The position numbers were made by a program, and so were the translations under genes. Positions 12,036 through 49,555 of a DNA stretch of 64,000 nucleotides are shown in pieces. The notes beneath the pieces were generated by a model. The model searched no databases and had not been told where the DNA came from. It worked only from the letters and a program-made list of their open reading frames with translations. The stretch is from NCBI GenBank assembly GCA_030390025.1, contig CM059432.1, positions 12,896,001-12,960,000 on the forward strand, in the 5' to 3' direction. Within the stretch, counting starts at the first letter, position 1. Each line of letters starts with the position of its first letter. The stretch is from Squalus acanthias (Eukaryota).

Positions 12036-12645
12036 ATTATATTACCCCCAACTCCGTGAGCTCTTATCTTATGCAGTAACCTTTTATGTGGCACCTTATC
12101 GAATGCCTTCTGGAAATCCAAATACACCACATCCACTGGCTCACCTTTATCTACCCTGCTCATTACATCCTCAAAGAACTCTAGCAAATTTGTTAAACAT
12201 GATTTCCCTTTCATAAAACCATGCTGACTCTGCTTAACTGCATTATGATTTTCCAAATGCCCTGCTACCACTTCCTTAATGAAGGACTCCAGCATTTTCC
12301 CAACGACAGATGTTAGGCTAACTGGTCGATAGTTTCCTGCTTTCTGTCTCCCTCCTTTCTTAAATAGGGTTGTTACATTTGCGGTTTTCCAATCTGCTGG
12401 GACCTCTCCAGAGTCCAGGGAATTTTGGTATATTGCAACCAATGCATCCACTATCTCTGCAGCCACTTCTTTTAAGATCCTGGGATGCAGACCATCTGGG
12501 CCAGGGGACTTGTCATCTTTTAGTCCCATTATTTTACCAAGTACTTTTTCCTTAGTGATAGTGATTGTCTTTAGTTCCCCCCTCCCTGTGGCCCCTTGAT
12601 TATCCATTATTGGGATGTTGTTAGTGTCTTCTACCGTGAAGATTT

Positions 12646-12982
12646 GAGCTGGATTTTCAATGACCCGTGGAGTCGGGTTTGGAGGCGTGTGGGGGGTTAA
12701 AGTTGCAGATTCGGGGGTCCCGACCCCATCCCGCCTCCAACCTGCCTCCATGCAATTTTGATGAAATCGTGTGCAGTGTTCCCGACTCCGTCCCGCCTCC
12801 AAGAGGCGGGAGAGGCCATTAAAGCCCTTAACAAGCCCTAAATTGGCTCTGTAATGCCATTTTGAAAAGTTTTAGCTAGTTTAACCCTTTTCCGACGTGA
12901 AGCACGCCTGATGTGAAACACGCCTGTGAAACCTGGCGGGAGCACAATGACCTCAACTCGACCCCAAGACAAAATCTAGCCC
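12646..12982. mobile_element. Harbinger-type MITE, local family B, short or chimeric copy
   Basis: Termini gagctggattttc / aaaatctagccc. The first ~300 bp closely match the left part of 22115-22797. Confidence 0.85.
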
Positions 12983-14411
12983 AAAATATTTGTTCAGAGT
13001 CTCTGCCATTTCCCCATTCCCCATTATTAATACCCCATTCTCATCCTCTAAGGGACCAACGTTTACTTTAGCTACTCTCTTCCTTTTTATATACCTGTAG
13101 AAGCTCTTACTATCTGTTTTAATATTTCTTGCCAGTTTACTCTCATAATTCATCTTCTCTCTCTTTATTATTTTAGTCATCCTTTGCTGGTTTTTAAAAA
13201 TTTCCCAATCCTCTGGCCTCCCACCAATCTTAGCAACATTGTATGCCTTCGTTTTCAATTTGATACCATCCTTTACTTCCTTAGTTAGCCACGGATAATG
13301 CTCCCTTCTCTTAAAATCTTTCTTTCTCACTGGAATATATTTCTGTTGAGAGTTATGAAATATCTCCTTAAATGTCCACCTCTGCATTTCAACTGTCTTA
13401 CCTTTTAATTTATTTTTTCAGTCCACTTTAGCCAGTTCTGCCCTCATGCCATTGTGATTGCCTTTGTTTAAGATCAGGACACTGGTTTGAGATACAACTT
13501 TCTCACCCTCCAACTGAATTTGAAATTCAACCATGTTATGACCACTCTTACCTAGAGGATCCTTTACTATGAGATCATTTATTAATTCTGTCTCATTACA
13601 CAGTACCAGATCCAAGATAGCCTGCTCGCTGGTTGGTTCCATTACATACTGTTCTAGGAAACCATCCTGGATACACTCTATGAACTCCTCCTCAAGGCTA
13701 TCATGGCCAATTTGATTTGTCCAATCAATATGGAGATTAAAATCACCCATGATTATTACCATACCTTTTTTACAGGCCTCCATTATTTGTTGATTTATAC
13801 TCTGTCCAACAGTATTGCTACTGTTCGGGGGCCTGTAGACTACGCCCACCAGAGACTTTTTCCCCTTAATATTTTTTATCTCTACCCAAACCGATTCTAC
13901 ATCTTGATCTTCTGAGCCAATATCACTTCTCACCACTGCACTGATCCCATCCTTTACCAACAAAGCCACCCCACCTCCCTTTCCTTTCCTTTTTTCCTTC
14001 CGGATTGTCAAATACCCTGGAATATTCAATTCCCAGCCCTGGTCACCTTGCAACCATGTCTCTGTAATGGCGATCAGATCATATCCATTTGTATCTATTT
14101 GTGCCATCACCTCATCTATCTTGTTACGAATGCTGCGCGCATTCAGATATAGAGTTTTTAACTTTGTCTTTTTACCATTTCTCCTTGTTTTGTCCCCATT
14201 TTCTGTTGCACTCTTATTTTTAAACATTCTGTCCCTTTCTGTCACACTCTGATTATTATTTCTCCCATCTCTATCCTGCTCTATTGTTTTCTCATTTCTC
14301 ATTGATTTTTTAAATTCCCGCTCACCTGGACCCTCCCCCCCACTACTTAGTTTAAAGCCCTCTCTACAGCCCTAGTTATTCGATTCGCCAGGACTCTAGC
14401 CCCAGCATGGT

Positions 14412-15281
14412 TCAAGTGAAGCCCATCCAAACGGAACAGCTCCCTCTTACCCCAGTACTGGTGCCAGTGCCCCACAAATCAAAACCCATTTCTCCCACAA
14501 CAGTCTCGTTCATTTCTCTGATCTTATTTACCCTATGCAAATTTGCTTGTGGCTCAGGTAGTAATCCAGAGATTATTACCTTTGTGGTTCTGCTTTTTAA
14601 TTTAGCCCCTAGCTGCTCATACTCTCTCAGCAGAACCTCTTTCTTTGTCCTACCTATGTCATTGGTATCTACGTGGACCATGACAACTGGATCTTTCCCC
14701 TCCCACTCTAAGTTCCTCTCCAGCCCAGAGGAGATGTCCTTAACCCTGGCACCGGGCAGGCAACACAGCCTTCGGGACTCGCACTCTCGGCTACAGAGAA
14801 CAGTATCTATCCCCCTAACTATACTCTCCCCTATCACTACAACATTTCTTTTTACTCCCCCCACTTGAATGGCTCCCTTTACCACGGTGCTGTGGTCAGA
14901 TTGCTCATCCTCCCTGCAGTCCCTGCCCTCGTCCACACAGGGAGCAAGAATCTCCTACCTGTCGCTGAGGCTCCTCCATCACTACCTCCTTGATCCCAAT
15001 ATCTGCCTCGCTTGTAGTCACACCCTCCTGTCCCTGACCATGGGCCAAATTGGAAGTAATTACTCTAGTGGGTGTGACTGCCTCCTGGAACATAGTGTCC
15101 AGGTAACGCACCCCTTTCCTAATGTGTCGCAGTGTCCGAAGCTCGGACTCCAGCTCATCAACTCTGAGCCGAAGTTCCTCGATGAGCCAACATTGCTGCA
15201 GATGTGGTCGCTGTGGACCTCAATGGTGTCCACCAGCTCCCACATGCAACAACAAAAACAACACATTGCCTGGTCTCCCAT
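14412..15281 (-). pseudogene. CR1 ORF1 (Cys-rich finger and SGNH/GDSL esterase), disrupted
   Basis: MCCFCCCMWE..HICS at the N-terminus, then VVVIGESIVRG, CLPGARVKD and VHVDTNDIG (degenerate GDS and GTND blocks). Confidence 0.85.
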
Positions 15282-15489
15282 CTCAATTAATTAATTAATT
15301 AGTTTTTTAAAATTTGGAATACGTATATCTTTTAATCTACACCAAGGCACTTAAATTTAGATGCCCAAGTTTGGAAAAAAGCGAGAAATAGAGAAATACT
15401 CACCAACCAATCACTTACCTGCTTTCTGATGACGTCAGACTTCAATTACTTTTTACTTCCTTACACTCACCGGTCCGTTGCAGCCCCGG

Positions 15490-16406
15490 CTCACCTTTAA
15501 ATCACCCGAGGTCTCGCGCTCTCGCTCACCATTTAAATCACCCGCTGAGGTCTCGCGCTCTTGCTGATCTTTAAATCACCCGCCAAGGTCTCGCGCTCTC
15601 GCTCACCTTTAAATCACCAGAGGTCTCGCGCTCTCGCTCACCTTTAAATCACCCGCTGAGGTCTCGCGCTCTCGCTCACCTTTAAATCACCCGCTGAGGT
15701 CTCGCGCTCTCGCTCACCTTTAAATCACCCGCTGAGGTCTCGCGCTCTCGCTCACCCTTTAAATCACCCGCTGAGGTCTCGCGCTCTCGCTCACCTTTAA
15801 ATCACCCGCTGAGGTCTCGCGCTCTCGCTCACCTTTAAATCACCCGCTGAGGTCTCGCGCTCTCGCTGATCTTTAAATCACCCGTTGAGGTCTCGCGCTC
15901 TCGCTCACCTTTAAATCACCCGCCGAGGTCTCGCGCTCTCGCTGATCTTTAAATCACCCGCCGAGGTCTCGCACTCGCGCTCACCTTTAAATCACCCGCT
16001 GAGGTCTCGCGCTCTCGCTCACCTTTAAATCACCTGCCGAGGTCTCGCGCTCTCGCTGATCTTTAAATCACCCGCCGAGGTCTCGCGCTCTCGCTCACCT
16101 TTAAATCACCTGCCGAGGTCTCGCGCTCTCGCTCACCTTTAAATCACCCGCTGAGGTCTCGCGCTCTCGCTCACCCTTTAAATCACCCGCCGAGGTCTCG
16201 CGCTCTCGCTCACCTTTAAATCACCCGAGGTCTCGCGCTCTCGCTCACCTTTAAATCACCCGCTGAGGTCTCGCGCTCTCGCTCACCTTTAAATCACCAG
16301 AGGTCTCGCGCTCTCGCTCACCTTTAAATCACCCGCTGAGGTCTCGCGCTCTCGCTGATCTTTAAATCACCCGCTGAGGTCTCGCACTCTTGCTGATCTT
16401 TAAATC
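15490..16406. repeat. Tandem array of a 38-bp unit, about 24-25 copies
   Basis: Unit tttaaatcacccgctgaggtctcgcgctctcgctcacc with 35-39 bp variants. I counted 25 occurrences of tttaaatc by eye. No spacers. Confidence 0.97.
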
Positions 16407-16410
16407 TGCC

Positions 16411-16682
16411 AAGGTGATTGGTAAAGGAACCAGAGGCGACATGAAAAAAAAATGACAGGGCAAGTTGTTATGATCTGGAATCCATTGCCTGAAAGGGTGG
16501 TGGAAGCAGATTCAATAATAACTTTCAAAAAGGAATTGGATAAATACTTGAAAAAAGAATTGCTGGGCTATGGGGAAAGAGCAGGGGAGTGGGACTAATT
16601 GGAGAGCTCTTTCAAAGAGCCGGCACAGGCACGATTAGACCAAATGGTATTTTTCTGTGCTTCATCATTCTACGAGTCTATA
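16411..16682 (+). mobile_element. CR1 LINE 3' end, right part of the 9258 element
   Basis: aaggtgattggtaaaggaacc..tggaatccattgcctgaaaggg followed by the 3' UTR. Confidence 0.88.
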
Positions 16683-17002
16683 CTGCAATCAATTAGAGAT
16701 TGCATTACTTAGATGGCATAATGGAGAACTGGTAATTTAAAAATGTTCCTGCATTTTTCGTAGAACTGCGGTGGCTCACTGACGTTGTGGCACAGTGATT
16801 TCCCCTCCCCATTCCCACAATCCTCCATCTGAAGGCACAACCCAGAAGCACAGATGAGGTGGTGCCAGCACCAACCTGAGATATTTAAATGCCCCTAACC
16901 CCGGGAAGTGGGATGGAATCAGGGGCCCAAACAATGGGGAGATGGATGTCTCACCCTGCCACATCTCCTCCGGCAGAGCGAGAGCACAAGAAATTCAGCC
17001 CT

Positions 17003-17696: not shown

Positions 17697-18050
17697 AACA
17701 ACAACAAATTGCATTTATATAGCACCTTTTCAAAGAGTAAAGCATCCCAAGGTGCTTCACAGGACAGTAATCAGACAAAAAATTGACACCAAGCCAAAGA
17801 AGGAGATTTTTGGACAGGTGACCAAAAGCTTGATCAAAGAGGTAAGTTTTAAGGAACGTCTTAAAGGAGGAGAGAGAGTGGAGAGGCGGAGAGGTTCAGG
17901 GAGGGAATTCCAGAGCTTAGGATCTCGGCAGCTGAAGGCACGGCCGCTGATGGTGGTGCGATTAAAATCGGGGATGCACAAGAGACCAGAATTGGAGGAA
18001 CGCAGAGATCTCGGAGGGTTTTAAAGTTGGAGGAGGTTACAGAGATTGGG
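17697..18050 (-). mobile_element. L2 LINE 3' end
   Basis: ORF 17757..17981 GRAFSCRDPKLWNSLP..LKLTSL and tail gtgctatataaatgcaatttgttgttg. Confidence 0.85.
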
Positions 18051-18097
18051 AGATAATTAGTCATATATCAATAATATTACCATTAATATTAATGGCA

Positions 18098-18583
18098 GGC
18101 CCTTGAGAGGGTGCAGAGGAGAATTACCAGAATGGTTCCGGTGATGGGCGATCTTAGCTACAAGGACAGGTTGGAGAAGCTGGATTTGTTTTCATTAGAG
18201 CAAAGGAGGTTGAGGGGTGATTTGATAGAGGTGTACAAGATTATGACGGGTTTGGATAGGCTAGACGGGGAAAGGCTGTTCTCACTAGTTGATGGTACAA
18301 GGACTAGGGGACACAGATTTAAGGTTTTGGGCAAGAGATACAGGGGGGATGTGAGGAAAAACTTTTTTACGCAGCGAGTGGTGAGGACGTGGAACTCGCT
18401 GCCGACGGAAGTGGTGGAAGCGGAGACACTCAATGTTTTCAAGGGGAGACTGGATAGGCACTTGAGGGCTACGGGGATAGAGCGGGGGAATGGGACTGAC
18501 TGGATTGCTCTACAGAGAGCTGGTACGGACTCGATGGGCCGAATGGCCTCCTTCTGTGCCGTTATGACTCTATGGTACTTCTA
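18098..18583 (+). mobile_element. CR1 LINE 3' end
   Basis: QRRITRMVP..RRLRGDLIEVYKI..RTRGHRFKV. Same subfamily as the 59979 copy. Confidence 0.9.
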
Positions 18584-19029
18584 AAATCTTTGTAGCATTA
18601 TTATTGTAAAATTAGTTGACCCTTCAATTACATGTTGTGTAAGCTAAAATCGAAAAAATATGACTATCCTAAGTATAGATTCCCTCAAGCTATTTAGTGG
18701 TTATTAACTGTCAGTCAGCAAGCCAGCTAATTACTTGAATCCAGTTGCTATTGATTTATTCATTAACTTGTTCCGGAGCCAACTATATATTGGATGTTGC
18801 CTGCCCAGTCAGAAATTCCTTATGGTTTAACTGTAATCAGTATCATGTTGGCATTGCATGTAGACTGTCCCCGCATATGGAGTGCTCCCTGAACTTGAGC
18901 CCTCACTCCGAAGGAACGAAAAAAATCTTATTATTAATTCATTGCCAAGGCCTTCTACCTCAATGGCATTGCTTGCTTAAAGCCCCCGCCCACCCCGCAC
19001 CTCACTCTCACTACTGCAGAAATCCTAAT

Positions 19030-19400
19030 CAACAAACTTGGGCTTTTCAGCCTAGAAAGGAGGCATCGGAAAGGTGATTTTATAGAGGTGCATACGATTG
19101 TTAACGATGTCGGAAAAGTGAACCCAGGATATCAATTTTAATTAAACTGCAGGGGTAGAACAGGCAACAGGTTCAAACTACTAAACCATAGTTTTAGGTC
19201 TAATATCAAAAAGTTCTTCTTTACATAAAGAGCAATCAATGTTTGAAATAAACTTCCAGGCAGAGTAGCGGAGGCAAGAACCCTGTAATCATTTCAGAAG
19301 CAATTGGGTGCTGCAATGGGGCGCCATTCGAATCTTCCTGGATGGATGAATTAAGATGGGCGAAATGGTTCTCCCCGTCCATAATTATCTTGTGGCCTTG
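19030..19400 (+). mobile_element. Old degenerate CR1 3' fragment
   Basis: ttcagcctagaaaggaggc..aggtgattttatagagg..ttcttctttacataaagag..gggcgaaatgg. A similar relic lies at 52750-52970. Confidence 0.6.
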
Positions 19401-19929
19401 TGAACACTTCCATCATAATGAAGACTATCTTCTCCAGTGGTCTCCTCACTGAACCTCCGCACATTCGCAAAACTTCAGCTAATTCAGAACATCAAGGGCT
19501 ACATCCTTTCCTGGATGACATTATCAGAGGCCAAGCTCCATATTTAAAGCAGCACTCCGCTGCCTTCCCAATGTTGTCCCGCACGCCTGCTGAAAACAGC
19601 AGGTTAAAGTCCAATCCCGCAGATAGGCAGCAGATCCCGGGGCTGGGGCTAAGGCGCTGCCCTTATTTTAACTCACCCCACACGGTTTCTGCCGAGTGTG
19701 TAGAGGGTGGGGGGGGGAGTTAAAATTCCCCCCACCCACAAGTTTTTAAGTTCAACTCGGCCTCTCCAAGTTTCCCCAGAATGTTTCTGATTTTTCGATT
19801 TGAAATCTCCCGCATGTACAAGGTGGTGGGACGCAGGGGGTTGGGGTGGGGCGGGGTGGGGGTGGGGGGGGGGGGCGGAGGTTGAAGGAGGAGATTGAAG
19901 CGCACATCACAAAACTTGAAGCAGGCTTC

Positions 19930-20985
19930 TGAAACACTCGAGAAGGTGCAAAAAAAGATTTACTAGAATGATACCAGAACTGAGAGGTTATAGCTAACAG
20001 GAAAGATTGAACAGAGTGGGCCTCTTTTCTGTAGAAAAGAGAAAACTGAGGGGTGACCTAATAGAGGTCTTTAAGATTATGAAAGGGTTGGTGGGGTAGA
20101 TGTAGAGAAGATGTTTCCACTTGTGTGGGAGACCAGAACTAGGGGCCATAAATATAAGATAGTCACTAATAACTCCTAAGGAAGGATATACTTGCCATAG
20201 AGGGAGTGCAACGAAGGTTCACGAGATTGATTCCTGGGATGGCGGGACTGTCGTATGAGAAGAGATTGGGTAAACTAGGCCTGTATTCTCTTGAATTCAG
20301 AAGAATGAGAGGGGATCTCATTGAAACATACAAAATTATTACAGGGCTTGATAGGGCTGTTGGATGCTGGGAGAATGTTTCCCTTGGCTGGGGAGTCTAG
20401 AACCAGGGGCCACAGCCTCAAGATAAAGGGTAGGCCATTCAGGACTGAGATGAGAAGAAATTTCTTCGCACAGAGGGTGGTGAATCTTTGGAATTCTCTA
20501 CCCCAGAGGGCTGTGGAGGCTCAGTCATTGGGTATATTCAAAACAGAAGTCGATAGATTTCTGACTAGTAAGGGCATCAAGGGATATGGCGATAGGGCCG
20601 GTGAATGGAGTTGAGGCAGAAGATCAGCCATGATCTCATTGAATGGCAGAGCAGGCTCGAGGGGCCAAATGGCCTACTCCTGCTCCTATTTCTTATGTTC
20701 TTATGTTCTCAATAGGTAATTCAAGAGAAACTTCTTGACTCAGCGAGAGGTTAGAATGTGGAACTCGCTACCACAGAGAGTAGTCGAGGCGAATAGAATA
20801 GATGCATTTAAGGGGAAGCTAGATAAGCACATGAGGGAGAAGGAATAGAAGGATATGCTGATAGGTTTATATGATGAGAGGTAGGAGGAGGCTCGTGTGG
20901 AGCATAAGCACCGGCATAGACCTGTTGGGCCGAATGGCCTGTTTCTGTGCTGTAAATACTATGTAATATTTTGTAATACTTTTAA
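19930..20985 (+). mobile_element. CR1 3' end with a younger CR1 3' end nested at about 20173-20710
   Basis: The host breaks at gtcactaataa and resumes at caataggtaattc. The nested copy ends in ttcttatgttcttatgttc. Confidence 0.85.
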
Positions 20986-22114: not shown

Positions 22115-22493
22115 GGGCTGGATTTTCAATGACCCGTGGAGTCGGGTTTGGAGGCGTGTGGGGGGTTAAAGTTGCAGATTCGGGGGTCCCGACTCCATCC
22201 CGACTCCACGCAATTTTGACAAAATCGGTCGCGGGGTTCCCAACTCCGTCCCGCCTCCAAGAGGCGGGAGAGGCCATTAAAGCCCTTAACAAGCCCTAAA
22301 TTGGCTCTGTAATGCCATTTTGAAACGTTTTAGCTAGTTTAACCCTTTTCCGACGTGAAGTACGCCTGATGTGAAACACGCCAGTGAAACCTGGCGGGAG
22401 CACAAGTGGATAGCTGACTATCAGCTGCAGGTCCACTATTACAACGGAGATGTGATGAAGGTAGTAGTAGTATTGTGATGAAGGTAGTAGTAT

Positions 22494-22526
<33 letters not shown>

Positions 22527-22797
22527 AGATGCTGCTCATTTTGCATCCAGGTCCTCTCACAGCAAAGGCCAGGCAATCTCTGAGACCAGGCAATCTCTGA
22601 GACCTGCAATGATGACATCATCAAAGGCGACTTTCAGACTGAAACCACTAATTGGTTCATGGGTTCCCACATGCTGGAACTCAATTGCCCAATTAAGTGA
22701 AAATTGCATCAATCTCCCACATCCAATTGCAGTCGGGTGGATAACACGAAATACGGATGACACGACCCCAACCCGCCCCAGTATCAAAATCCAGCCC
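22115..22797. mobile_element. Harbinger-type MITE, family B
   Basis: TIRs gggctggatttt / aaaatccagccc with flanks TAA/TGA. Contains (CT)n at about 22496-22523. Confidence 0.88.
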
Positions 22798-24096: not shown

Positions 24097-25376
24097 TCAG
24101 GTTGCCAACTCTCGTTGGAGGTATTCCAGGAGGTTTCATCACACGACCACCCACCTCAACCACCCTGCCCCCCGCGCTCCTGCCATTGGTCACCCGACAT
24201 GTCCATCCTCACGGTGCCCGGCCTTCCCACGCCAATCAGAAAGCAAACAGACTCTTCGTTACCTGATTGGATGAATCTTGACCGTCAGTTAAATAGCCTT
24301 TTTCCCAAACTCCAATTTTTTTATAACTAATAAACAAAAGTTAAAAAAAAAAAAAATTTTTTAAACACCATGGGGTAAAAATTCAGTTGGTTGCGCCTCC
24401 CGTTAGCGCCTTAAGAGGGCGCTAATGGGGCGCAAAGCCGCTAACGCCCGGGCGCAGCGATGTTTGCGCCGCTCGAGAACTTAACTTGAGATTGTGCGGC
24501 GGCGCTAAAACTTACCGCTGCGACCACCTGCGCGCGCAGATTGTGACGTCATTCCATGGTGCAACGCCCTTGTGGCGCCCCGGAGCGGAAATTGAGTGGC
24601 GCCCCCTGCCTTACCGCCTGGCGCTTCCAACGACCGGAAGACTGGAACGCTATCAATCGCTGTGGGGCTGGGGGAGGCGCTATTTAAAGGGGGCCTCTTC
24701 CTGTCTTTTATCGTTGGTGGCATTTTTGAACTACGCATTCTGAGAGAGAGAGGGAGAGACTTCTGGAGAGATTCAACGTTGTGTGAAGGAGTTTTGGGTA
24801 CTGAGCAGCACTTTGCAGGTTCATTTTGATTTGCCATTCCTTGTATCGATTTAGCAGAGACTGTGGGAGCTGCACTCTGAGCTCTTTGATGGTACTCTCC
24901 ATTGTTCTTTCCAGCACATTTGATGTGCAAGTCTCTCCAGGCCGAGATTCAAGGCTGCAATGAACAGGATGTGGATGGAAAGCAAGATTAACCATCCCCT
25001 TTAAGAACTGGCCCGTGCCATTGTGTGTGTGTTCCATTGCTGACTGACATTACATGAGCTTCGCCAGCGCTCTGAGTTAGCGCCTCATTCCTTGGCCTTT
25101 GCGCCTTAAGACAGGTGTGCAGCGCCTGATTTAGCGCTCCACTCACCTCCCGGGGCGGTAAAAGTGAAGTTTCCAGTCAGTGCCGATAATTAGCGCCAGG
25201 CGCTAATATTTGCGTCCAGACGATATTTGCGCCCCAAATGGGGCGCGACCTAATTTCTACCCCCATTTCTTTAATGCCCCTATGAGTTTCCTCCCTGGTT
25301 TGCTCGAACAGTGTCCTGGAGATTAATCTTTGATTCCTGGAGACTCCAGACCAATCCTGGAGGGTTGGCAACACTA
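24097..25376. mobile_element. hAT-type (Blackjack-like) non-autonomous element, split by a family C MITE
   Basis: TIR-like ends tcaggttgccaactctc / gagggttggcaacacta. 8-bp TSD ccgcagtc (24089-24096) versus ctgc|..gcagtc, the right copy split by the adjacent CR1. Confidence 0.65.
24372..25263. mobile_element. Harbinger-type MITE, family C
   Basis: TIRs ggggtaaaaatt / aatttctacccc, TSD CAT, many gcgcc/ggcgc subterminal motifs. Homologous to 60667-61546. Confidence 0.88.
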
Positions 25377-25380
25377 CTGC

Positions 25381-28176: not shown

Positions 28177-28951
28177 GGCCAGAATTTTCCCATCAAAAAA
28201 CGGGTGGGTTTGGAGCGTGGGGGCAGTTACATTGTTAAAAGTGGGATTCCCAACTTGATCCCGCCTCCAACCCGCCCACTTCCGGTTTTGCTGGAGGCGG
28301 GACACCAACCCGCTCCCAGGGGGCGTTGCCTCAATTTAAATATTGTAATGAGGCTGGAAGCCTCTATTTTCCCCTCCATTTTGAATTTAACTGCCTGGGG
28401 ACGAGTTTCACACAATTCGTGAAACCCAGCAGCTAAACAGAGGCGGGGGCTGCTGCATCCAGGAGGTAAGTGGCTTTATACCTACCTCCTAGATCCAGGG
28501 TCCTTGCCTGACCCACCCCCAGCGATCGGAGACCCCCACCACGAGGCCTCCGATCGCATTCCCAGGCCTCCCCCCGCCACACCCAGGCCTCCCTCCACCA
28601 CCGATGATGATGAGGCCAGCCACGATCCTCCAGTGACTGGCCCCGATCCTCCGGGCCCCCCCCTGCCGATCCTCCACACCCCCCGATCCCTGGTCAACCC
28701 CCCCCACCGCGATCCCCGACCACTCCCCCGCGATCCCCTACCAACCCCCATCACCTGCCAATCCCCGATCCCCTTCCGATCCTGCAACCGCCCCCGCCGA
28801 TCCTCTCTCCCCCCCTCCCGATTGCCAATCCCCTCCCACCGATCCCCGACCCCCCTCCCGCGATCCCTCCCCCCTCTCAAACGGGCTGGCTACGGGCGGG
28901 AAACCGAGGCCTCACATTTAAATTAGGCCCTTCCCGAGGAAAATTCCAGCC
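28177..28951. mobile_element. Harbinger-type MITE, family D-like
   Basis: TIRs ggccagaattttcc / ggaaaattccagcc with flanks AAT/AAC. The host gagttaacgtttcagg is restored on removal. Internal (ccccgatc)-like repeats. Confidence 0.82.
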
Positions 28952-28961
28952 AACGTTTCAG

Positions 28962-28996
28962 GTTCTGATGAAAGGTCATCGACTTGAAACGTTAAC
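28962..28996 (+). ncRNA. Minimal type I hammerhead ribozyme motif (putative)
   Basis: gtt CTGATGA aaggtc atc gactt GAA ACGT T aac: catalytic core boxes, stem II, palindromic ACGT in place of stem III, and stem I gtt/aac. Confidence 0.55.
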
Positions 28997-30864
28997 TCTG
29001 TTTCTCTCTCTCCACAGATGCTGCCTGACCTGCTGAGCATTTCCAGCATTTTCTGTTTTTATTACAATTAATCATCCATTCACACATATTTCTGAAGCAA
29101 TTTGGTCTGTTGGGCAAGGGCCACTTTTCTTTGGGAATAGCAGCTTCTGAATACCCTAATTGTCTACCGGGATGAGATACGTTGACCTCTGTTTGCAGAT
29201 GCAGGTGGGTGAGGTGAATGGGCACAGAGCATCTCTCCTGCTGCTTAACCCACATGAATCCTTCCATTGTCCCTCTTCACCTTCTCCTTCCCAACTCTTC
29301 AAATAGGGGGATTCACACTGAGAAACCCCCAGCGATACACTGGGGCAAAAAAAAAAGACAAATTAAAATGATAGTACGAAGGGTTACGACAACCTAAGCG
29401 CCAGCGGGGGGGTGGGGGGGGAAGAAAGCAACAAAAACCGTCAAGAAATGGCTGAAAAACCGCAGACTTAATTTACTTATTTGATCCCGTTAGCTCAGCT
29501 ATAGCCACAGTTGGTTCCCTAACACAACGAGCGTCCTTTGGAAACAACACCCTGCACACGCAAAATGGTATGCAGGATGTCAAAGCCTCCAAATAAGTGT
29601 TGAAATGAAGCTTCCACCTGTTTGAGGCAGGCACACGGCCACAGTGCAAAATTGGGTGGAGTTTCAGCAGAACAGATTTACAGTGGTGGCATGGGTAGCC
29701 AGAAGTGGAAAATCCAGGCTCATGTATTGAGCCACAAAACAATGGGAGTCTCTGATGATTAATGTGAAATGTAAGTATAACTGAGAAGACAAGTATGACT
29801 CAAAAAGAGGCCATCTCCTATGAATCAGCTTGTGTCTTAAAGTGTACACTGGAGCATTAACCTCTTGCCCTCCTCTTCCCCCTCCATGCTCTTTGTACTC
29901 TGTTTTGGAAAATAATACGAGAGTGGATAGATCCTTACCATTCCCAGTAAAATGTTTCTGTATGTTTATCTCTGCCTGCTACTGTCACAAAGGCCAGCTG
30001 GCCTGGGGCTCATGAAGCCGCTTATACTTCTGGCTGCTTTGCATCAAAGCCCATTGACACAGGACTGCGGAATTTTTTCTGGGAGCGCTAGCATTTAACA
30101 GCGAGCCATGCTGCAGTCAATCGCTGCGATGTCTGTTTGATCAGGGCTTGTTTGTCAATGCATCTGGACGGAGTCTCAAACAGAAGAAGCTTAGAGAAAA
30201 GTTGGAACTGAGCCTGGCACTGACTGAAAGTGATTTTTCATTCGTTTACTATTTGCGTTTCCAGTACTGAGAAAGCTACCAGTTCCAAACGAGGTCAATA
30301 ACATCTGATCTTTACAGCACTGATGTCTGGTTGAAATACTGGTGCGTAGAGAGAGGATGCACAACAGGGAGTACTGAATTCTAAAAAATAAACCATCACC
30401 CGATGTCTTGCTGCTTGACTTATTTTGTCCACATGACGTGTACTCAAAAATATTTCCCATTTTGTATGAATTCTAGGGTGACTGTATTACAAACAGGCCA
30501 CCTGAATGCAGTGTGAGCAAACGGCTTCTGATCAAAGAAATGTGTTCAAAATGAGAACTTCCTTTTAGCATATTACTGTGGAAACAGAATGAATAGTTTA
30601 TTAAGAACCAATACTGTTTAACAAGTTGGAAGTTTCCTGAAGCCCTGAATGTTTGTTTGTAAAGCGTGTGACTGACTAGAAGGCTCTGTGGAGGTCACCA
30701 GTCAGGGCAAAGGAGTAAGTACTCAGCCAGCCACTTAGCAACAGCACACCTATGCCGAGGAGAAATTAAGACAGAAATGCCTCTATACCATTATGTGGTG
30801 CCTCTTTTGTTTTGAGTACATCATGGTAGGCCTTATTTATCTGTAAGTTTCTTTCATTCTAAGT

Positions 30865-31740
30865 AAAGAACATAGAAACAGGACCAGGCCATTCAGCTTC
30901 TGGAGCCTGTTCCACCATTCATAGAAACATAGAACATAGAGAAATAGGAGCAGGAGTAGGCCATTCGGCCCTTCGAGCCTGCTCCGCCATTCAATATGAT
31001 CATGGCTGATCCTCTATCTCAATACCATATTCCCGCTCTCTCCCCATACCCCTTGATGCCTTTTGTGTCTAGCAATCTATCTATCTCCTTCTTAAATATA
31101 TTCAGTGACTTGGCCTCCACAGCCTTCTGTGGTAGAGAATTCCACAGGTTCACCACCCTCTGAGTGAAGAAATTTCTCCTCATCTCAGTCCTAAATGTCC
31201 TACCCCGTATCCTGAGACTGTGACCCCCTCGTTCTAGACCCCCCCCAGCCAGGGGAAACATCCTCCCTGCATCCAGTCTGTCTAGCCCTGTCAGAATTTT
31301 ATACGTTTCAATGAGATCCCCTCTCATTCTTCTAAACTCTAGTGAACGCAGGCCTAGTCGACCCAATCTCTCCTCATACGACAGTCCTGCAATCCCAGGA
31401 ATCAGTCTGGTGAACCTTCGCTGCACTCCCTCTATGGCAAGTATATCCTTTCTTAGGTAAGGAGACCAAAACTGCAGACAGTACTCCAGGTGTGGTCTCA
31501 CCAAGGCCCTGTATAACTGCAGTAAGACATCCTTGCTCCTGTACTCAAATCCTCTTGCAATGAAGGCCAACATGCCATTTGCCTTCCTAACTGCTTGCTG
31601 CACCTGCATGTTTGCTTTCAATGAGATCCTTGATGTAGTTACCTTGTTTCTCACCCCTTTCCTTCTTAAATAATGGATTGACATTTGCAATTTTCCAATC
31701 CAAAGGCACAATTCCTGAGAGCTTTGCAAAATTGTGACTA
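30865..31740 (-). mobile_element. Cluster of CR1 3' fragments, including a young copy at about 30921-31619
   Basis: ORF 31019..31816 contains an open ORF2 C-terminus, nearly identical to 40744-41455. Confidence 0.9.
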
Positions 31741-32479
31741 CTCCTCGCATATTTCTTTTAATAGGCCTGAAATGACAATGTGTGGAATGACAAGGGAAGA
31801 GCTCAAGCTGCATCATTTTGTTCTTTGCTCACAAACTGCGTATAAAAAAATAAATGTGCAGTGAAACAAGCACTGAACAAAGCTCCAGCTGGCACAGCTA
31901 ACCTGCACTTCATCCAAGCAGCCTATTGTTGGTATCTCCAAGGAAATGCCAAGCCGGCGGGGAGGGGGTGGGGGCGGGGGGTGGGGGAGGGGGGGGTGTG
32001 CGGCTTGGCTTTATGACAAAGGCAATTCAACTTATTTTAGGCAAGAGATTGCTACCTCAGACTGGCATCCCACCTACCAGTCAAATGATCCAGGATTTAC
32101 CTGGACTCTGGCCTAGCAGATCTGATCTAATGCTGCAGAATGCTTTAACACACCCAAACAGCCCCGGATTCATGAAAGATGTCCTGCAACATTACGCGAG
32201 AGACACTGGCTTATAACTATTGAATTGCACGTTGCTGACTACTTTTTTTTTTGGCTGAAAGCAGAACCAGTCCTATTGGCAATCTTCTGAAAGATCCCGG
32301 CCTCGATTTTTTTTTACTCACGGGCGGGCGCGCACCAGACAGCGGGGCCGATTTGAACGGCTGGGCCCCGCTGCCAACTTCCCGACCAAAACAGCCAGGT
32401 GGCGGGAAGCGTCTGCCCCGACTGTGAAAATCGTGCTGGTCGGAGGCAGCCGCCAGGGGACCCGAGGCAACGGTGGAGG

Positions 32480-33020
32480 AGAATCATAGGAACAGGAGGA
32501 GGCCATTCAACACCTCGAGCCTGTGTCTGATCTGTATCCTAACTCCATCCACCCGCCTTGGCTCTATATTCCTAATACTCTGGGCTAGCGAAAATCTATT
32601 GATCTCAGATTGAAAATTATTAATTGAGCTAGCATCTACTTTTTTTTGTGGGAGAGAGTTCCACACTGCTACCACCCTTTGTGTGAAGAAGTGTTTCCTA
32701 ACTTCCCTCTGGGAATGGCCTGGCTCTAATTTTAAGGCTATGTCCCCTTGTCCTTGACTCCCCCACCAGCGGAAAAAATTTCTATCTACCCTATCAATTC
32801 CTTTCAAAATCCTAAAAACCTCAATCAAATCACCCCTCAACCTTCTACAGTCCAGGGAATGCAAGCCTAGTTTATGTAATCTCTCCTAATAATCTAACCC
32901 TTGGAGCCCTGGTAAGGTTCTGGTCAATCTGCGCTACATTCCTTCCCAGGCCAATATATCCGTTCTACGGTGCGGTGCCCAGAACTGGTCACAGTACTCC
33001 AGATGTGGTCTAACCAGGGC
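32480..33020 (-). mobile_element. CR1 3' end
   Basis: RRLRGDLIEVFRIL..KHFFTQRVVAVWNSLP. Confidence 0.85.
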
Positions 33021-33059
33021 TTTGTAGCAAAACTTCCTCCCCTTTATATTCTAGATTAC

Positions 33060-33488
33060 TGGTCGGCTGGGGTGGTGGGGTGGGGGGGGGGGGGGGGGGG
33101 GGCGCGGGGGAATCTCGGAGCAAGGGAGCCCAAGATTTCTTTGTGGGTCCCAGAGGAGCATTCCTTCTCCTCCAGGCCCACAAGGAAACTTAAAAAACCA
33201 AATACATAACGTACTTTACTGGGCCTCTTTTGCCCCTGGCTGCTGTTTCCAGCAGGTTTGGACTTGCAGAGAAGCCACCACTGCTCAGGCCTCAGGTTAA
33301 AATTACTGATCAGGCCCCGATTAAGTCTTTGGAGCCCTGCTGCCTTTGGGTGGGGGTCTTGCTGCCTGCAATTTAAAATTGCAGCCGGTCAGATCGGGGT
33401 GGGAAAGGAGTGGGACAGTCCCCCCCATTTTAACTGCTCCCACCAACCTAGTTTCCATCCAGGTGGAAGGAGTTAAAATTGAGGCCCT
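33060..33488. mobile_element. Partial Harbinger-type MITE (family D-like, inverted)
   Basis: Ends in gttaaaattgaggccc. The body resembles the reverse complement of 4261-4620. Confidence 0.45.
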
Positions 33489-33494
33489 GAAAAA

Positions 33495-34078
33495 TACAGG
33501 GCCTTGGTGAGACCACATCTTGAGTACTGTGCACAGTTTTGGTCTCCTTATCTAAGGAAGGATATATTTGCCTTGGAGGCGGTGCAACCAAGGTTCACTC
33601 GATTGATTCCTGGGATGAGAGGGCTGTCCTATGATGAGAGATTGTGTAGAATGGGCCTATACTCTCTGGAGTTTAGAAGAATGAGAGGTGATCTCATTGA
33701 AACATACAAGATTCTGAAGGGGATTGACAGGATAGATGCTGAGAGGTTGTTTCCCCTGGCTGGAGTGTCTAGAACTAGGGGGGCATAGTCTCAGGATAAA
33801 GGGGTTGGCCATTTAAGATTGAGATGAGGAGGAATTTCTTCACTCAGAGGGTTGTGAATCTTTGGAATTTTCTGCCCCAGAGGGCTGTGAATGCTGAGTC
33901 TTTGAGTATATTCAAGGCTGAGATAGATAGATTTTTGGACTCTAGGGGAATCGAGGGATCTGGAGATCGGGCGGGAAAGTTGAGTTGAGGTCGATGATCA
34001 GCCATGATCTTATTGAATGGCGGAGCAGGCTCGAGGGGCCGTATGGCCTACTCCTGCTCTTACTTCTTATGTTCTTAT
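33495..34078 (+). mobile_element. CR1 3' end
   Basis: [26 protein letters not shown] with tail ttcttatgttcttatg. Confidence 0.92.
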
Positions 34079-34944
34079 GAGATGAAATTCAACTTCATGA
34101 AAAGCAAGGATCTATTGTTTCTCTTCAAAAGAAGAAGCCCGATATTGCCTGCATTAATAATTGGTAACTGCCTGGCAGAATAGTATCTATGATGTTGTTG
34201 GACATCGAAACAACCTGAAATGGGTCCGTCAAAGTGCACATAGGAAAGGCCAGTAAAAAGTTACTTCATTTAATCTGTGTGAAGAAACCGAACCTGCACT
34301 TAGTTGACCTTGTATTGGTTTCCAAATCTGTCATAACTCTTCTTTACCGTACACATGTGTGACAGTATATATAGAATGTAAATATTAAGACGGTAAGCAT
34401 TCATATTTTACAATGTTATGTTTCCACATGCATTAAGAATTAAGTTACAGTAAAAGTATTCTCAGAGAGTAATGAGATAAATGTGATACTTCCCATAATA
34501 ATCTCTTAATATTTTTTAAAGACGTTGATAGCTGCCATAAAGATGAAGGAGAAAAGGTTTGCAGTCAGGTGAATAGTGTGTTTTAATTGCCCTTTGAGCC
34601 AAATTCTCCTCGCCTGCCTTAAAAATGCTCTTCCCCTTTCACTCCGTTGACAGCCACAGTGACTGACATTAGAACAGCTAATTATAGAGTTTCTTTGGCA
34701 AAGTTTGATTGGCAGATGGGACAACAAGATACTTCCTCTAACTTCAGCCAGATTAATCCTAGACAAAAACTAATAAATGTGTGATTGACTTGCTTTCCCT
34801 AGCTACGTTTCTTTGAGCTTGTGGCAATTTTGAGAATATGGCGACTACAATCCTAAATCCTTGGTAACGTGAATAATGAGGATGCTTTAGTTATGTGTTG
34901 AATCTTAGAGCGAGGTAGTGATCCTCCTATTTGTGATACTCTAT

Positions 34945-35320
34945 CTTCTTCTTCTTAGGCAGTCCTTCGGAACCCAGGATGACTCGCTTTCACACTAAAA
35001 ATGAGTTCTCAGGTGACTGATGAGTCCAATGCGGGACCTACAGTCTCTGTCACAGGTGGGGCAGACGGTGGTTGAAGGGGCGGGTGGGTGGGGTGCTTGG
35101 GTTGACGTGCGTTGCTTGCGCTTGGCTTCCGCTTGCTCCTGGCGAAGAGACTCGAGGTGTTCGGCGCCTTCCCGGATGCTTCTCCTCCACTTTGTGCGGT
35201 CTTGGGCCAGGGATTCCCAGGTGTCAGTGGGGATGTTGCACTTTTTCAAGGAGGCTTTGAGGGTGTCCTTGAAGCGTTTCCTCTGCCCACCTGGGGCTCT
35301 CTTGCCGTGCCGGAGCTCCA
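34945..35320 (-). mobile_element. RTE-clade LINE 3' fragment
   Basis: ELRHGKRAPGGQRKRFKDTLK..WESLAQDRTKWR..CPTCDRDCRSRIGLISHLRTH, (AAG)n tail, 9-bp TSD atactctat (34936-34944 and 35321-35329). Confidence 0.92.
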
Positions 35321-37551
35321 ATACTCTATACCTCGTGTACTAAAGCAAGGATTATTTCTGTCTAAGGGCGAGCAAATATCAAATTAAGCAATGTGATTCT
35401 GTGAAAATTATATTGAATACGATATTTTGGTTATGGATGGTAATAAAAAAGCAAATTATCTGGATTGTACACAGAGTGAAATATTTCCTTTTCTTATACC
35501 TCAAAAATTATTTTCATTCATACTGTAATTATGTCAGATGTTCCAGCTGGACTCAGTAATGTGGCAGTCAAGATATGGATATGGGCGGCACAATTGAAGC
35601 CTGCCCAGAACCAGAAACATTAAATGGACCCCAGTATACATGGGTACCAAACACCAACCGAAAACAGAAAATAAATTTGATTCAATTTAAAAGATATTAA
35701 TCTGAATATTAAATGGGGACAGGGCTTACAAGAAACAAATTCTAGTTGAAAAAAGGAATAATTTTCCTAGAAATAACAGACAGAAATTACAATTGAAATA
35801 ACCTATTAATCAAGACTCCCCATTACCATCATAATACCAGAAAACATAAGAACATAAGAACACAAGAAATAGGAGCAGGAGTAGGCCATTTGGCCCCTCG
35901 AGCCTGCTCCGCCATTCAACAAGAGCATGGCTGATCTTCTACCTCAACCCCACTTTCCTGCATTATCCCCATATCCCTTGATTCCCTTAATATCCAAAAA
36001 TCTATCAATCTCTGTCTTGAATATACTCAACGACTGAGCCTCCACAGCTCTCTGGGGTAGAGAATTCCAAAGATTCACCACCCTCTCAGTGAAGAAATTT
36101 CTCCTCATCATAGTTCTAAATGTCCGACCCCTTATTCTGAGACTGTGACCCCTGGTTCTAGACTTCCCAGCCAGGGGAAACATCCTCCCTGCACCTACCC
36201 TGTCAAGCCCTGTAAGAATTTTGTATGTTTCAATGAGATCACCTCTCATTCTTCTAAACTCTAGAGAATATAAGCCTAGCCTACTCAATCTGTCCTAATA
36301 GGACAATCCCCCCATCCCAGGAATCAGTCTGGTGAACCTTCGTTGCACTCCCTCTATGGCAAGTATATCCTTCCTTAGGTAAGGAGACCAAAACTGTACA
36401 CAATACTCCAGGTGCAGTCTCACTGGGGTCCTATATAATTGCAGTAAAACATCTTTACTCTTATACTCAAATCCTCTTGTAATAAAGGCCAACATACTAT
36501 TTGCATGTTAACTTTCAGTGATTCGTGTACACGGGCACCCAGGTCCCTCTGAACACCAACATTTCCCAATCTCTCGCCATTTAAAAAATACTCATGCTTT
36601 CTATTTTTCCTACCAAAGTGGATAACTTCACATTTCACCACGTTATATTCCATTTGCCATGTTCTTGCCCACTCACTTAGCCTGTCTATATCCCCTTGAA
36701 GCCTCTTTGCATCCTCCTCACAACTTACATTCCCACCTAGCTTTGTATCATCAGCAAACTTGGATATATTACATTTGGTCCCCTCATCCAAATCATTGAT
36801 ATAGACTGTGAATAGCTGAGGCCCAAGCACTGATCCTTGTGGTACCCCACTAGTTACAGCCTGCCAACCCAAAAATGAACCGTTTATTCCTACTCTCTGT
36901 TTTCTGTCTGTTAACCAATCCTCAATTCATGCTAGTATATTAATCCAATCCCATGAGCCATAATTTTGTTTAATAACCTTTTGTGTGGCACCTTATCAAA
37001 TGCCTTCTGAAAATCCAAATACACCACATCCACTGGTTCCCCCTTATCTATTCTGCTAGTTACAACCTCAAAAAATTCTAACAAATTCGTCAAACATAAT
37101 TTCCCTTTCATAAATCGGTCATGACTCTGTCCAATCCTATTATTATTTTCTAAGTGCCTTGTTACCACGTCCTTAATAATAGATTCTAGCATTTTCCCTA
37201 CGACTGATGTCAGGCTAACTCGTCTGCAGTTCCCCGTTTTCTCTCTTCCTCCTTTCTTAAATAGTGAGGTTACATTTGCTACCTTCCAATTTGCAGGAAC
37301 CATTCTAGAATCTATGGAATTTTGGAAAATGACAACCAATGCATCCATTATCTCTATAGCCACCTCTTTTAAAACCCTAGGATGTAGGCCATCAGGTCCA
37401 GAGGATTTATTGGCTTTCAGTCCATTAATTTCTCCAGTACTATTTTTTTACTAATACTAATTTCTTTCAGTTCCTCATTCTCGCTAGAGCCTTGGTTTTC
37501 CACTATTTCCGGGAGGGTTTTTGCGTCTTCTTCCGTGAAGACAGACACAAA

Positions 37552-39320
37552 AGGCTGGATTTTCCCTGCGGAGACGGGATGGTGGCGGGAGAGCTGGTTG
37601 GCGGTTTCCGGTCCCGCTCCCGTCTGCAGCCGCTCTCTGAAATTATTTTCCGTAGATTGGCCTTGTTGAGCCGCCCTGCGGGGTTCCCGGCCAATTAACA
37701 GGAAGCGGGTCTAATGACGTCATTTGATGATGGTCATCAGCTGGTTTCCTTAAAGGGACCATGGCCACATTGATTTTGACAGTTCTGCTGTCAGTGTTCT
37801 ACAGCATTGAGGTGCTGCAAACACTGACAAGCACTGCACAAAGGTGGACAGCTGCACCCAGGCTCTCCCATGACTCCCTCCATATGCTTATGGAGAGAGT
37901 CACAGCACGCAGGGAGTTCTCTTCCTTTCCCATCAGCGGAAGAGACCTCCCCAGGAGACCAACGCAGTCTGGTTGCACATTACACAGGAGGACACAAGCA
38001 GGATGTCGTCAGGAGTGTCTGGCCGCAGTGGCTCCAACCTTTCAATGATCTCAGTAGATCACAAAATGTTACTGCAAAGCCACACTCAAACTCACCCTGC
38101 TGTGCCCCTCATCACATCCCCATCATTCTGTCTTCCATACCCTACTCCTGCACATCCTTACTCACACCAACTTACCTTGCACCTCCACCCATCCCTCTCT
38201 ATCTACATTATCACTTCCCCATCTCACTAGCCAACCCTCACACTCACCCTCATCCTACTGCAAGCATACGAACTAACAACACACAAGAGTAGGTGCCTGG
38301 GTGGTTTAGCCAATGTTCATGTGAAGTTTCTGGTAAGGTGTTGTCATACAGTGAAATCTATATTTTCAACACTTCAACTTATTGGACAGATCTGCGCGCA
38401 CCTTGAGATGTGTCTTACTGAGTTCTAGTGAATGTTGAGACATAACTTCCCGCCCCGCTATAATGATGAGTGTGAAAGGAATGGCTTGGACATTATAGGG
38501 ATGCTTTACGGTGCTGGTGTGGGATGGTATCAACCTGGCGCATCATGTGGCAGCCAGGGTTTACAGCATCAAGTGAAGTAAATCTGGCCATGGTAATGCC
38601 ATCGCTGGCCTCCCGGGCAGCAATGTTGTCAGGGGATGATGTCCTGTGCAGCATCAGGTGATGGCAGAGAAGGTTGGTGATGTTGTTGGTGATGTTGGTG
38701 TGCCTGGTGATGTTGGGGCTGATCGTGGAAGGATTCAGGGGACCAAGGTGTGATTTTTTCAAGGGCACCGATGTTGCTGGAATAGATGGCAGCTGCAGGT
38801 GAGATGACAGAAGCGATCTGTCAATGGAGAGAGAGGTTGTTCCAATGTGGTGGCACTGGACATACAGTTGGCTCTAAACACTTGCAAGCTAAAGAAATCT
38901 CTATATGTTTTACAAATGCAGTAACCAACAGTTTCTGAGCTCTGGAACTGAACAGCTGCAACATGGTATCCTTCATACCAGTTCTGCAGCTGTCAGGTTA
39001 TCAGATAAATCAAAGCAGACAACTCACGACAGGGTGAGCTGGCGTGTTCCCCGAGCAGCGGGTAACCCGTGGGGGAGCACGTAAAATTACACGGTAGGCT
39101 CAAAATAGCATTAAATTGGCTGTTAACAAGCCATTTAATGATCTAAATTGTCTCCCCCGCCTCTTGGTGTCGAGTCAGTTCTACGCAGACAGACCTGACA
39201 CCTGGGAGACTGGCGTGGAGGCGGGGTGACAGCAGGTTTCCTACCCGCTGTCAATCTTTGCTATTTTGACAGCGGACACGCCTCTAAACCCGCCCTCTGA
39301 GCGCTGGCAAAATCCAGCCC
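37552..39320. mobile_element. Harbinger (PIF/Harbinger) internal-deletion derivative, 1.77 kb
   Basis: TIRs aggctggatttt / aaaatccagccc, TSD AAA, a Myb/SANT-like remnant on + and a possible transposase C-terminus on -. Confidence 0.88.
37845..38070 (+). pseudogene. Frameshifted Myb/SANT-like DNA-binding domain of Harbinger
   Basis: Read across three frames: AAPRLSHDSLHMLMERVTARREF / KRPPQETNAVWLHITQEDTSR / DVVRSVWPQWLQPFNDLSRS, which fits a trihelix Myb/SANT pattern. Confidence 0.7.
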
Positions 39321-39871
39321 AAAGTATTTGTTTAATTTCACTGCCATTTCCTTATTCCCCATTATAATTTCTCCTGTCTCAGCCTGTAAGGGATCCACGT
39401 TTACTTTCGCTAATCTCTTCCTTTTTACATACCTATAGAAGCTTTTACAGTTTGTTTTTATGTCTCTCGCTAGTTTACTCTCATATTCTATTTTCCCTTT
39501 CTTTATCAATTTCTTGGTCCTCCTTTGCGGAATTCTAAAATCCTCCCAATCCTCAAGCTTACTATTCTTTTTGGCAACATTATAAGCTTCTTCCTTTAAT
39601 CTAATACTAGCTTTAATTTCTCTTGTTAGTCATGGTTGGACCATTTTTGCCATGGTGTTTTTATTCCTTACGGGAATGTATATTCATTGCAAATTATGAT
39701 TTATTTCTTTAAATGTTTGCCATTGCTTTTCTACTGTCATATCTTTTAATCTAGTTTCCCAACCTAACTTAGCCAACTCGCCTCTCATACCTACGTAGTT
39801 TGCTTTGTTCAAGTTTAGGACCCTAGTTTCGGACTTAACTAAATCACTCAACATAAAATGTTATCATATTA

Positions 39872-49493: not shown

Positions 49494-49555
49494 AACATTA
49501 TACATTTGCTGTGGCACGTGCCCAAGGATATACGATGATACACCAACGTTACCAA

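What the first reader, a model, noticed from the sequence alone, without database searches (positions are those of the whole stretch)
12640..39330. Two different Harbinger-type elements hit the same nucleotide of CR1 ORF2 in two separate CR1 copies
Seen: in CR1 10176-16410 a 337-bp MITE ends aaaatctagccc|aaaatatttg (12982). In CR1 35843-46190 an internally unrelated 1.77-kb element ends aaaatccagccc|aaagtatttg (39320). The ORF track shows the same junction in both: MAETLNKYF-GLDF and MAVKLNKYF-GLDF. The CR1 hosts are diverged and the inserts differ internally, so this is not a simple duplication. The site is an imperfect palindrome (acagacac AAA gtatttgt). Known: zebrafish Harbinger3_DR has an unusually long target preference. 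Inference: a Harbinger transposase with gggctggatttt TIRs preferentially targets a fixed site in the most abundant LINE, a DNA transposon using and disrupting CR1 as a safe harbour.
Basis: partly seen in the sequence, partly recalled or inferred. Interest (0 to 1): 0.78.

Follow-up and report, generated by a model that had tools for sequence, protein, structure and literature searches.

The report
Harbinger landing site in conserved CR1
Two related cut-and-paste transposons sit in opposite orientations at the same base of two diverged copies of a LINE retrotransposon, likely because a protein-conserved stretch of that LINE spells the 15-base target that these transposons also use outside LINEs, so this is likely ordinary Harbinger target choice, not a LINE-seeking system.

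Summary
The shared right junction is real, and the two insertions are independent. The hosts are 72-77% identical. The inserts lie in opposite orientations, and the MITE is 95% identical to a copy outside CR1. Two details of the finding are wrong: the inserts are related (about 285 bp homologous, z 11.5), and site 1 has lost its left flank and TSD.

Site 2's target matches 10 of 12 flanking bases of the published zebrafish Harbinger3_DR consensus, the best of 4,279 host positions. Six other window elements, four outside CR1, define a WRANNY-NNN-RNNTYW motif (11 of 12 half-sites) that site 2 fits. The site lies in ORF2's conserved LNxYFxSVF stretch, so protein constraint likely preserves the target. 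This reads as a passive hotspot, not CR1 targeting.

The genome-wide histogram could not be run: no genome was held and the contig tables were truncated. My crude model gives only 0.25-0.85% for a same-site pair, so hotspot strength is open. The scan earlier noted the same mechanism in this genome at CR1 tails and satellites, but not at this site.

The parts
12646..12982 (.). 337-bp MITE with GGGCTRGATTTT-type TIRs, inserted in CR1 host 1
   Evidence: 94.7% identical over 284 nt to 22115
12643..12645 (.). damaged left junction of site 1: no TSD; 3 bases stand where host 2 has 10 CR1 bases
12983..12991 (+). right TSD copy (AAA) and right half-site of site 1, fits WRANNY
10174..15247 (-). CR1 host 1: RT and endonuclease pieces; another repeat interrupts it at 11290-12036; probably runs on to the 38-bp tandem array ending about 16409 (not verified)
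   Evidence: Pfam RVT_1 E 6e-14 and Exo_endo_phos E 1.5e-11
37552..39320 (.). 1,769-bp non-autonomous element; its right-hand ~290 bp are homologous to the MITE in reverse orientation
37543..37551 (+). left half-site AGACAC and left TSD AAA of site 2
39321..39329 (+). right TSD AAA and right half-site GTATTT of site 2
   Evidence: empty-site joints
37851..38061 (+). possible decayed Myb/SANT-like ORF remnant spread over three frames (by eye; the likeness is recalled and no tool confirmed it)
   Evidence: translation; searches found no true relative
35843..39829 (-). CR1 host 2, 3' part (continues at 44097-45821 beyond nested insertions)
22115..22797 (.). longer member of the site-1 MITE family, outside CR1 ORF2-like sequence; full motif
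60294..60647 (.). member of the site-1 MITE family in a CR1 3' tail; TSD TAT; full motif
24372..25263 (.). other Harbinger-type element, TSD CAT, target 11 of 12 to Harbinger3_DR, outside CR1
28177..28951 (.). other Harbinger-type element inside a SINE-like repeat (label recalled); full motif
47312..48032 (.). other Harbinger-type element, TSD CAA, 9 of 12 to Harbinger3_DR, outside CR1; full motif
60667..61546 (.). other Harbinger-type element in the same CR1 tail as 60294; full motif
6491..6505 (+). empty homologous site in a third CR1 (LNEYF); upstream half-site does not fit the motif
42250..42264 (+). empty homologous site in a fourth CR1; upstream half-site does not fit the motif

Best explanation
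Two related non-autonomous Harbinger-type DNA transposons inserted independently, in opposite orientations, at the same CR1 ORF2 position, likely because that position is one of the best matches in CR1 to the 15-bp palindromic target these transposons also use outside CR1, and protein constraint likely keeps that match in place. SHOWN: independent insertion; a 3-bp TSD at site 2; the WRANNY-NNN-RNNTYW motif at elements inside and outside CR1; the site's top rank in its host; conservation of LNxYFxSVF among ORF2 relatives. FROM LITERATURE: PIF/Harbinger elements move through a transposase plus a Myb-like protein and have an extended 9-15-bp target preference set by element-encoded protein. INFERRED: an autonomous partner elsewhere in the genome mobilised both elements; the complex reads W-R-A-N-N-Y on each side of a free 3-bp centre; CR1 lineages with a Lys codon AAA before Tyr-Phe and a Ser codon TCT/TCA two codons after carry both half-sites; with very many CR1 copies the site becomes a passive hotspot. 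The inserts break ORF2, but nothing shows that this matters to host or element.
For: Target of site 2: 10 of 12 flanking bases match AAACAC-CWG-GTCTTT (consensus from a passage of PMC3016246). It ranks 1 of 4,279 host-2 positions, and only 3 of 63,985 window positions reach 10. The six other paired elements score 5, 11, 6, 9, 8, 7 against a background mean of 3.4. Their half-sites have A at -4 in 12 of 12, R at -5 in 12 of 12, W at -6 in 12 of 12 and Y at -1 in 11 of 12. Leave-one-out puts each of the six in the top 0.02-0.7% of window positions, and site 2, not used in training, in the top 0.06%. The full motif occurs at 86 window positions (0.13%) and at 7 of 4,279 host-2 positions; of the 5 others that could be mapped, 1 is kept in host 1. 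All 3 intact half-sites at the two junctions fit. Among 112 of 120 ORF2 relatives covering the site, N is 100%, Y/F 96%, F 98%, S 96% and V 97%; in 79 of 112 the residues are compatible with three of the four core bases. Only Lys-AAA or Arg-AGA completes the upstream half-site; both hit hosts have Lys-AAA and both empty homologous sites in the window lack it (2 vs 2, weak). Independence: opposite orientation; MITE copies K2P 0.055 against hosts 0.28-0.37; empty sites in 4 of 4 runs.
Against: The weight matrix from six elements gives only 0.25-0.85% for two insertions in these two hosts to coincide (10-33 times uniform). Site 2's predicted share of host-2 insertions is 4-10% by that matrix and 6-50% by a Harbinger3_DR match model, so the motif lowers the surprise but does not remove it. 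The motif comes from 12 half-sites of several families. Site 1's left half-site is lost and cannot be scored. The junction is not among the 24 loose ends shown of about 17,000, which is uninformative because the table was cut and undercounted. No transposase was found and the Myb-like remnant is unconfirmed. Residue 127 (K here) is not conserved among relatives (E 29%, A 19%), so constraint explains only part of the motif.
Confidence: 0.66

Rival explanations
1. Chance among motif sites: the site is only one of dozens of acceptable targets in CR1 and no marked hotspot, and the pair was noticed because many windows are read.
For: 83 of 4,279 host-2 positions carry the short A-N-N-Y/R-N-N-T core. 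At 1.2% per pair, 50 windows each holding such a pair give a 45% chance of one coincidence; 214 windows of this genome carry notes. The pair probability is 0.25-0.85%.
Against: The site is not average: rank 1 by Harbinger3_DR match and rank 2-3 by the independent matrix among 4,279 positions.
Confidence: 0.22
2. Dedicated CR1 targeting: the transposase's specificity has been tuned to this conserved ORF2 site as a safe harbour.
For: Both paired elements found inside CR1 ORF2 in the window are at this site. The site lies in one of the most conserved linker motifs, as a durable target would. Dada transposons show that DNA transposons can home on multicopy sequence (abstract starts of PMC3706591 and PMC8869645).
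Against: 2 of 3 copies of the same MITE family are elsewhere. The motif is used outside CR1 and resembles the zebrafish consensus, which was not described as CR1-linked in the passages read. Specified flanks are only about 6 bp a side. Contig depth at the element's first base is 0.3-7% of the depth in the CR1 flank 110 bp away (four runs); this is a rough ceiling only, since the tool warns that depth is no copy number.
Confidence: 0.08
3. One ancestral insertion, copied with its CR1 or by duplication, and later rearranged.
For: The inserts are in fact homologous over about 285 bp, and the left junction of site 1 is rearranged.
Against: The homology is in opposite orientation. The MITE is 94.7% identical to a copy in unrelated flanks while the hosts differ by 23-28%. 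Empty sites are present in 4 of 4 runs.
Confidence: 0.03

Closest known systems
Harbinger3_DR / Harbinger3N_DR of zebrafish (passages of PMC3016246 and PMC2836001; the primary paper PMC2290759 is not held)
   Same: 15-bp palindromic target around a 3-bp TSD; the flanks match its consensus at 10 of 12 (site 2) and 11 of 12 (24372).
   Different: The TSD is not CWG (AAA, TAT, CAT, CAA and others seen); the flank preference looks more degenerate (WRANNY); only non-autonomous copies were seen.
NuwaI group of the PHIS superfamily (passages of PMC4482050)
   Same: TIRs start GGG, are short, and occur in animals; 3-bp TSD.
   Different: NuwaI is defined by CWG TSDs, and none of the window's paired elements shows CWG.
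PIF/Harbinger proper and Tourist-like MITEs such as mPing (passages of PMC2836001, PMC4482050)
   Same: Short TIRs, 3-bp TSD, extended target preference, MITE derivatives.
   Different: The plant preference is 9 bp with TWA-type TSDs; here it spans 15 bp with a free centre.
Dada DNA transposons (search listing and abstract starts of PMC3706591, PMC8869645)
   Same: A DNA transposon found repeatedly at one position of a multicopy sequence.
   Different: Dada is described as strictly specific for small-RNA genes; these elements mostly sit elsewhere and share only a short degenerate motif.

Membership tests
PIF/Harbinger (PHIS) non-autonomous element | short terminal inverted repeats starting with G/A | tested here: met
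   12-13 bp TIRs
PIF/Harbinger (PHIS) non-autonomous element | 3-bp target site duplication | tested here: met
   site 2 AAA/AAA, empty joints skip 1,769+3; exact at 3 of 6 other elements and 2 of 3 bases at the other 3; lost at site 1
PIF/Harbinger (PHIS) non-autonomous element | extended palindromic target preference | tested here: met
PIF/Harbinger (PHIS) non-autonomous element | link to a DDE transposase and Myb/SANT ORF | tested here: inconclusive
   no Pfam hit of use in 7 stop-free pieces of element 2; no true relative; a Myb-like reading over three frames by eye only; no autonomous copy at hand
NuwaI group | CWG TSD | tested here: not met
   TSDs AAA, TRA, CAT, AAY, CAA, TAT, YAT
NuwaI group | TIR begins GGG | tested here: met
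   most ends; two left ends carry one change
strictly target-specific DNA transposon (Dada-like) | most copies of the family in one multicopy target | tested here: not met
   1 of 3 MITE-family copies in the window is at the site; no genome-wide count
CR1-type LINE host | APE endonuclease plus RT in ORF2, short-repeat 3' tail | tested here: met
   Pfam; 8-bp tail repeat; relatives in birds and a ray; the clade name CR1 itself is recalled, no tree was built

The most novel reading that the evidence does not exclude
The protein-constrained K-Y-F-x-S codons of CR1 ORF2 form a fixed landing pad that takes a large share of Harbinger insertions genome-wide across several families and species, strong enough that it shapes both parties: Harbinger specificity kept on a self-renewing safe harbour, and CR1 lineages escaping by codon change (Lys-AAA to Glu).
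Probability: 0.1. Interest if true: 0.65.

Novelty: new member of a known kind. Interest (0 to 1): 0.27.

Why it matters
As it stands, this is a tidy example of known Harbinger target choice meeting an abundant repeat. It adds that a zebrafish-like 15-bp preference is used with a free 3-bp centre in this genome, and that amino-acid constraint in a LINE can preserve a DNA-transposon target across lineages 25% apart. It also warns that identical insertion points in paralogous repeats need not mean common descent. It would matter more if occupancy proved high and tracked the Lys-AAA codon across CR1 lineages, since that would make a conflict between two transposon classes directly testable. A passage of PMC9179366 says Harbingers were not detected in elephant shark and asks for other cartilaginous fish; that this genome is a shark is inferred, not shown here.

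Tried and rejected
No genome is held, so the histogram and trees could not be made. Contigs of 4 of 20 listed runs were laid on 35800-39830: they showed empty sites, but only 15 of 2,089 joints and 24 of about 17,000 loose ends were printed and counts were incomplete, so there is no hotspot measure. Junction pattern in metagenome contigs: 17 of 17 loci were chance matches with no window homology beyond the pattern. Junction peptide search: 1 candidate, an uninterrupted ORF2 piece. Viral and prokaryote collections: nothing. Myb/transposase remnant: Pfam, word search and atlas were blank; the single phmmer hit is a low-complexity turtle protein and was rejected. Rows left out of the motif set: single ends without a partner (1841, 4262, 17001, 19733, 29720, 53777, 58096, 59080, 62702) and three pairings (17899-20502 and 31130-33877, taken as CR1-internal look-alikes; 28177-29720, a second pairing of one end). 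1841 does not fit the motif on its one visible side, and several of the others have uncertain boundaries. Two end coordinates were off by one and were corrected; one offset was corrected. Literature searches for a Harbinger hotspot in CR1 listed nothing that describes it by title or abstract start; the library lacks most subscription papers and Repbase reports, and no supplements were read.
Full report
OBSERVATION. The 12-mer occurs 9 times at up to one mismatch against 0.98 expected. Both end at the same register of a minus-strand LINE ORF2, reading LNKYF-GLDF. The hosts carry RVT_1 and endonuclease domains and are 77.4% and 71.6% identical on the two sides. Site 2 has an AAA duplication. Contigs from 4 of 4 public runs laid (25, 6, 16 and 22 contigs in the rows shown) join across it, the best-supported rows skipping 1,772 bases, the element plus 3.

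TWO CORRECTIONS. The inserts are not unrelated. With TIRs removed, the MITE aligns over about 285 bp to the reverse complement of element 2's right end (score 173; 300 shuffles 78+-8, max 111), at K2P about 0.60. They are distant relatives in opposite orientation. Also, site 1 has lost its left TSD and flank: 3 bases stand where host 2 has 10. The shared register therefore rests on the right junction.

INDEPENDENCE. Three things argue against one ancestral insertion. The orientations are opposite. The MITE is 94.7% identical to the copy at 22115 in unrelated flanks (K2P 0.055), while the hosts are 0.28-0.37 apart. Empty sites exist.

THE TARGET. A review passage gives the Harbinger3_DR target as AAACACCWGGTCTTT (PMC3016246). 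Another passage gives 9 bp in plants and 15 bp in vertebrates, set by element-encoded protein (PMC2836001). Site 2 reads AGACAC-AAA-GTATTT, 10 of 12 flanking bases. That is the best of 4,279 positions in host 2, and a score reached by 3 of 63,985 window positions. I then took the six other elements with both ends intact (22115, 24372, 28177, 47312, 60294, 60667; found; nine single ends and three doubtful pairings were left out). An earlier scan note (e1-7807215) had given the core A-N-N-Y/R-N-N-T, and I tested it here. The 12 half-sites extend it to W-R-A-N-N-Y (12, 12, 12 and 11 of 12 at the four positions). Leave-one-out places each element in the top 0.02-0.7% of positions, and site 2, unseen in training, in the top 0.06%. 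Four of the six lie outside ORF2-like cover and outside CR1 tails; two lie in one CR1 tail. Of three copies of the site-1 MITE family, one is at the ORF2 site. The preference is for a motif, not for CR1.

WHY THIS PLACE. The cut falls on the Phe codon of L-N-x-Y-F-x-S-V-F. In 112 of 120 ORF2 relatives that cover it, N is 100%, F 98%, S 96% and V 97%, among the most conserved of 160 linker positions. The upstream half-site needs Lys-AAA or Arg-AGA before Tyr/Phe, and the downstream one needs Ser TCT/TCA. Both hit hosts have Lys-AAA; the two empty homologous sites in the window (6497, 42256) have Glu codons and fail the upstream half (a 2-by-2 pattern, weak). Only 7 of 4,279 host-2 positions carry the full motif, and just 1 of the 5 others that could be mapped is kept in host 1. 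Inferred: protein constraint holds most of the target in place while neutral matches drift, so this is one of few targets shared across CR1 lineages. The residue at the Lys position is not conserved more widely, so the full site is lineage-limited.

HOW SURPRISING. Uniform insertion gives 1 in 4,279. The six-element matrix gives site 2 a 4-10% share of host-2 insertions and a Harbinger3_DR match model 6-50%. Using both hosts' own sequences, the matrix gives only 0.25-0.85% for any same-site pair, 10-33 times uniform, depending on what is assumed for the lost half-site. So the motif explains much but not all. The rest is either a stronger true hotspot than 12 half-sites can model, or selection of a lucky pair among many windows. 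I could not separate these: no genome is held, the contig tables were cut, and other collections held nothing. Contig depth at the element's first base is 6.2%, 1.0%, 0.3% and 7.2% of the depth at 37442 in the CR1 flank. This suggests most CR1 copies are empty, but depth is no copy number.

FAMILY. TIRs, 3-bp TSD and extended target fit non-autonomous PIF/Harbinger (PHIS) elements (passages of PMC9179366 and PMC4482050). The CWG TSD that defines NuwaI is not met. A stretch at 37851-38061 reads by eye like a frameshifted Myb/SANT domain (the likeness is recalled), but Pfam, a word search, the atlas and phmmer gave no true relative. Membership rests on end structure and target, not on a coding link. 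It does not behave like the strictly specific Dada elements (abstract starts only).

WHAT I SAW OF THE LITERATURE. Passages: PMC3016246, PMC8151067, PMC2836001, PMC9179366, PMC4482050, PMC9587614. Listings and abstract starts only: PMC3706591, PMC8869645 and the rest. Not held: PMC2290759. Six searches listed no paper on a Harbinger hotspot in CR1 ORF2; no supplements were read, and Repbase reports are outside the library. Earlier scan notes describe the same mechanism in this genome at CR1 tails and in satellites. They are unchecked AI notes and not independent support.

VERDICT. A real, independent double hit, most likely a passive hotspot made by a known kind of target preference and a protein-conserved LINE motif (0.66); chance among motif sites 0.22; dedicated CR1 targeting 0.08; common descent 0.03. 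New member of a known kind; interest 0.27.

Noticed in passing
window 60240-61546 and 62690-62810: Two Harbinger-type elements sit 19 bp apart in one CR1 3' repeat tail, and a third terminus (related to element 2's right end, 86% over 98 nt) sits at another CR1 tail.
   Followed up: partly
window 37883-38776: Contigs of runs X1 and X16 skip about 890 bases inside element 2 (3 joint rows): a shorter deletion derivative of about 880 bp appears to exist.
   Followed up: no
window 37690-38900: The interior of element 2 has contig depth about 10-20 times that of its left end, so it is likely shared with a much larger family that has other ends.
   Followed up: no
window 37851-38061: Possible frameshifted Myb/SANT-like remnant; not confirmed by any tool.
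   Followed up: partly
window 12636-12657: The damaged left junction of site 1 ends in letters that resemble part of the TIR and are also the reverse complement of the TSD; a repair or abortive-excision scar is possible.
   Followed up: no
window 48338-51054: Large inverted duplication, arms about 1.15 kb at 92% identity and up to 99% over 305 nt; the same repeat interrupts CR1 host 1 at 11290-12036.
   Followed up: no
window 15508-16409: 38-bp tandem array of about 20 units at the 5' side of CR1 host 1.
   Followed up: no
window 54340-55000: 16/18-bp tandem array that runs into the subterminal part of a Harbinger-type element related to 28177 and 4262.
   Followed up: no
P0013, P0047: CR1-like ORF2 proteins deposited under bacterial names (Carnobacterium, Candidatus Brocadiaceae), likely animal DNA in bacterial assemblies.
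   Followed up: no
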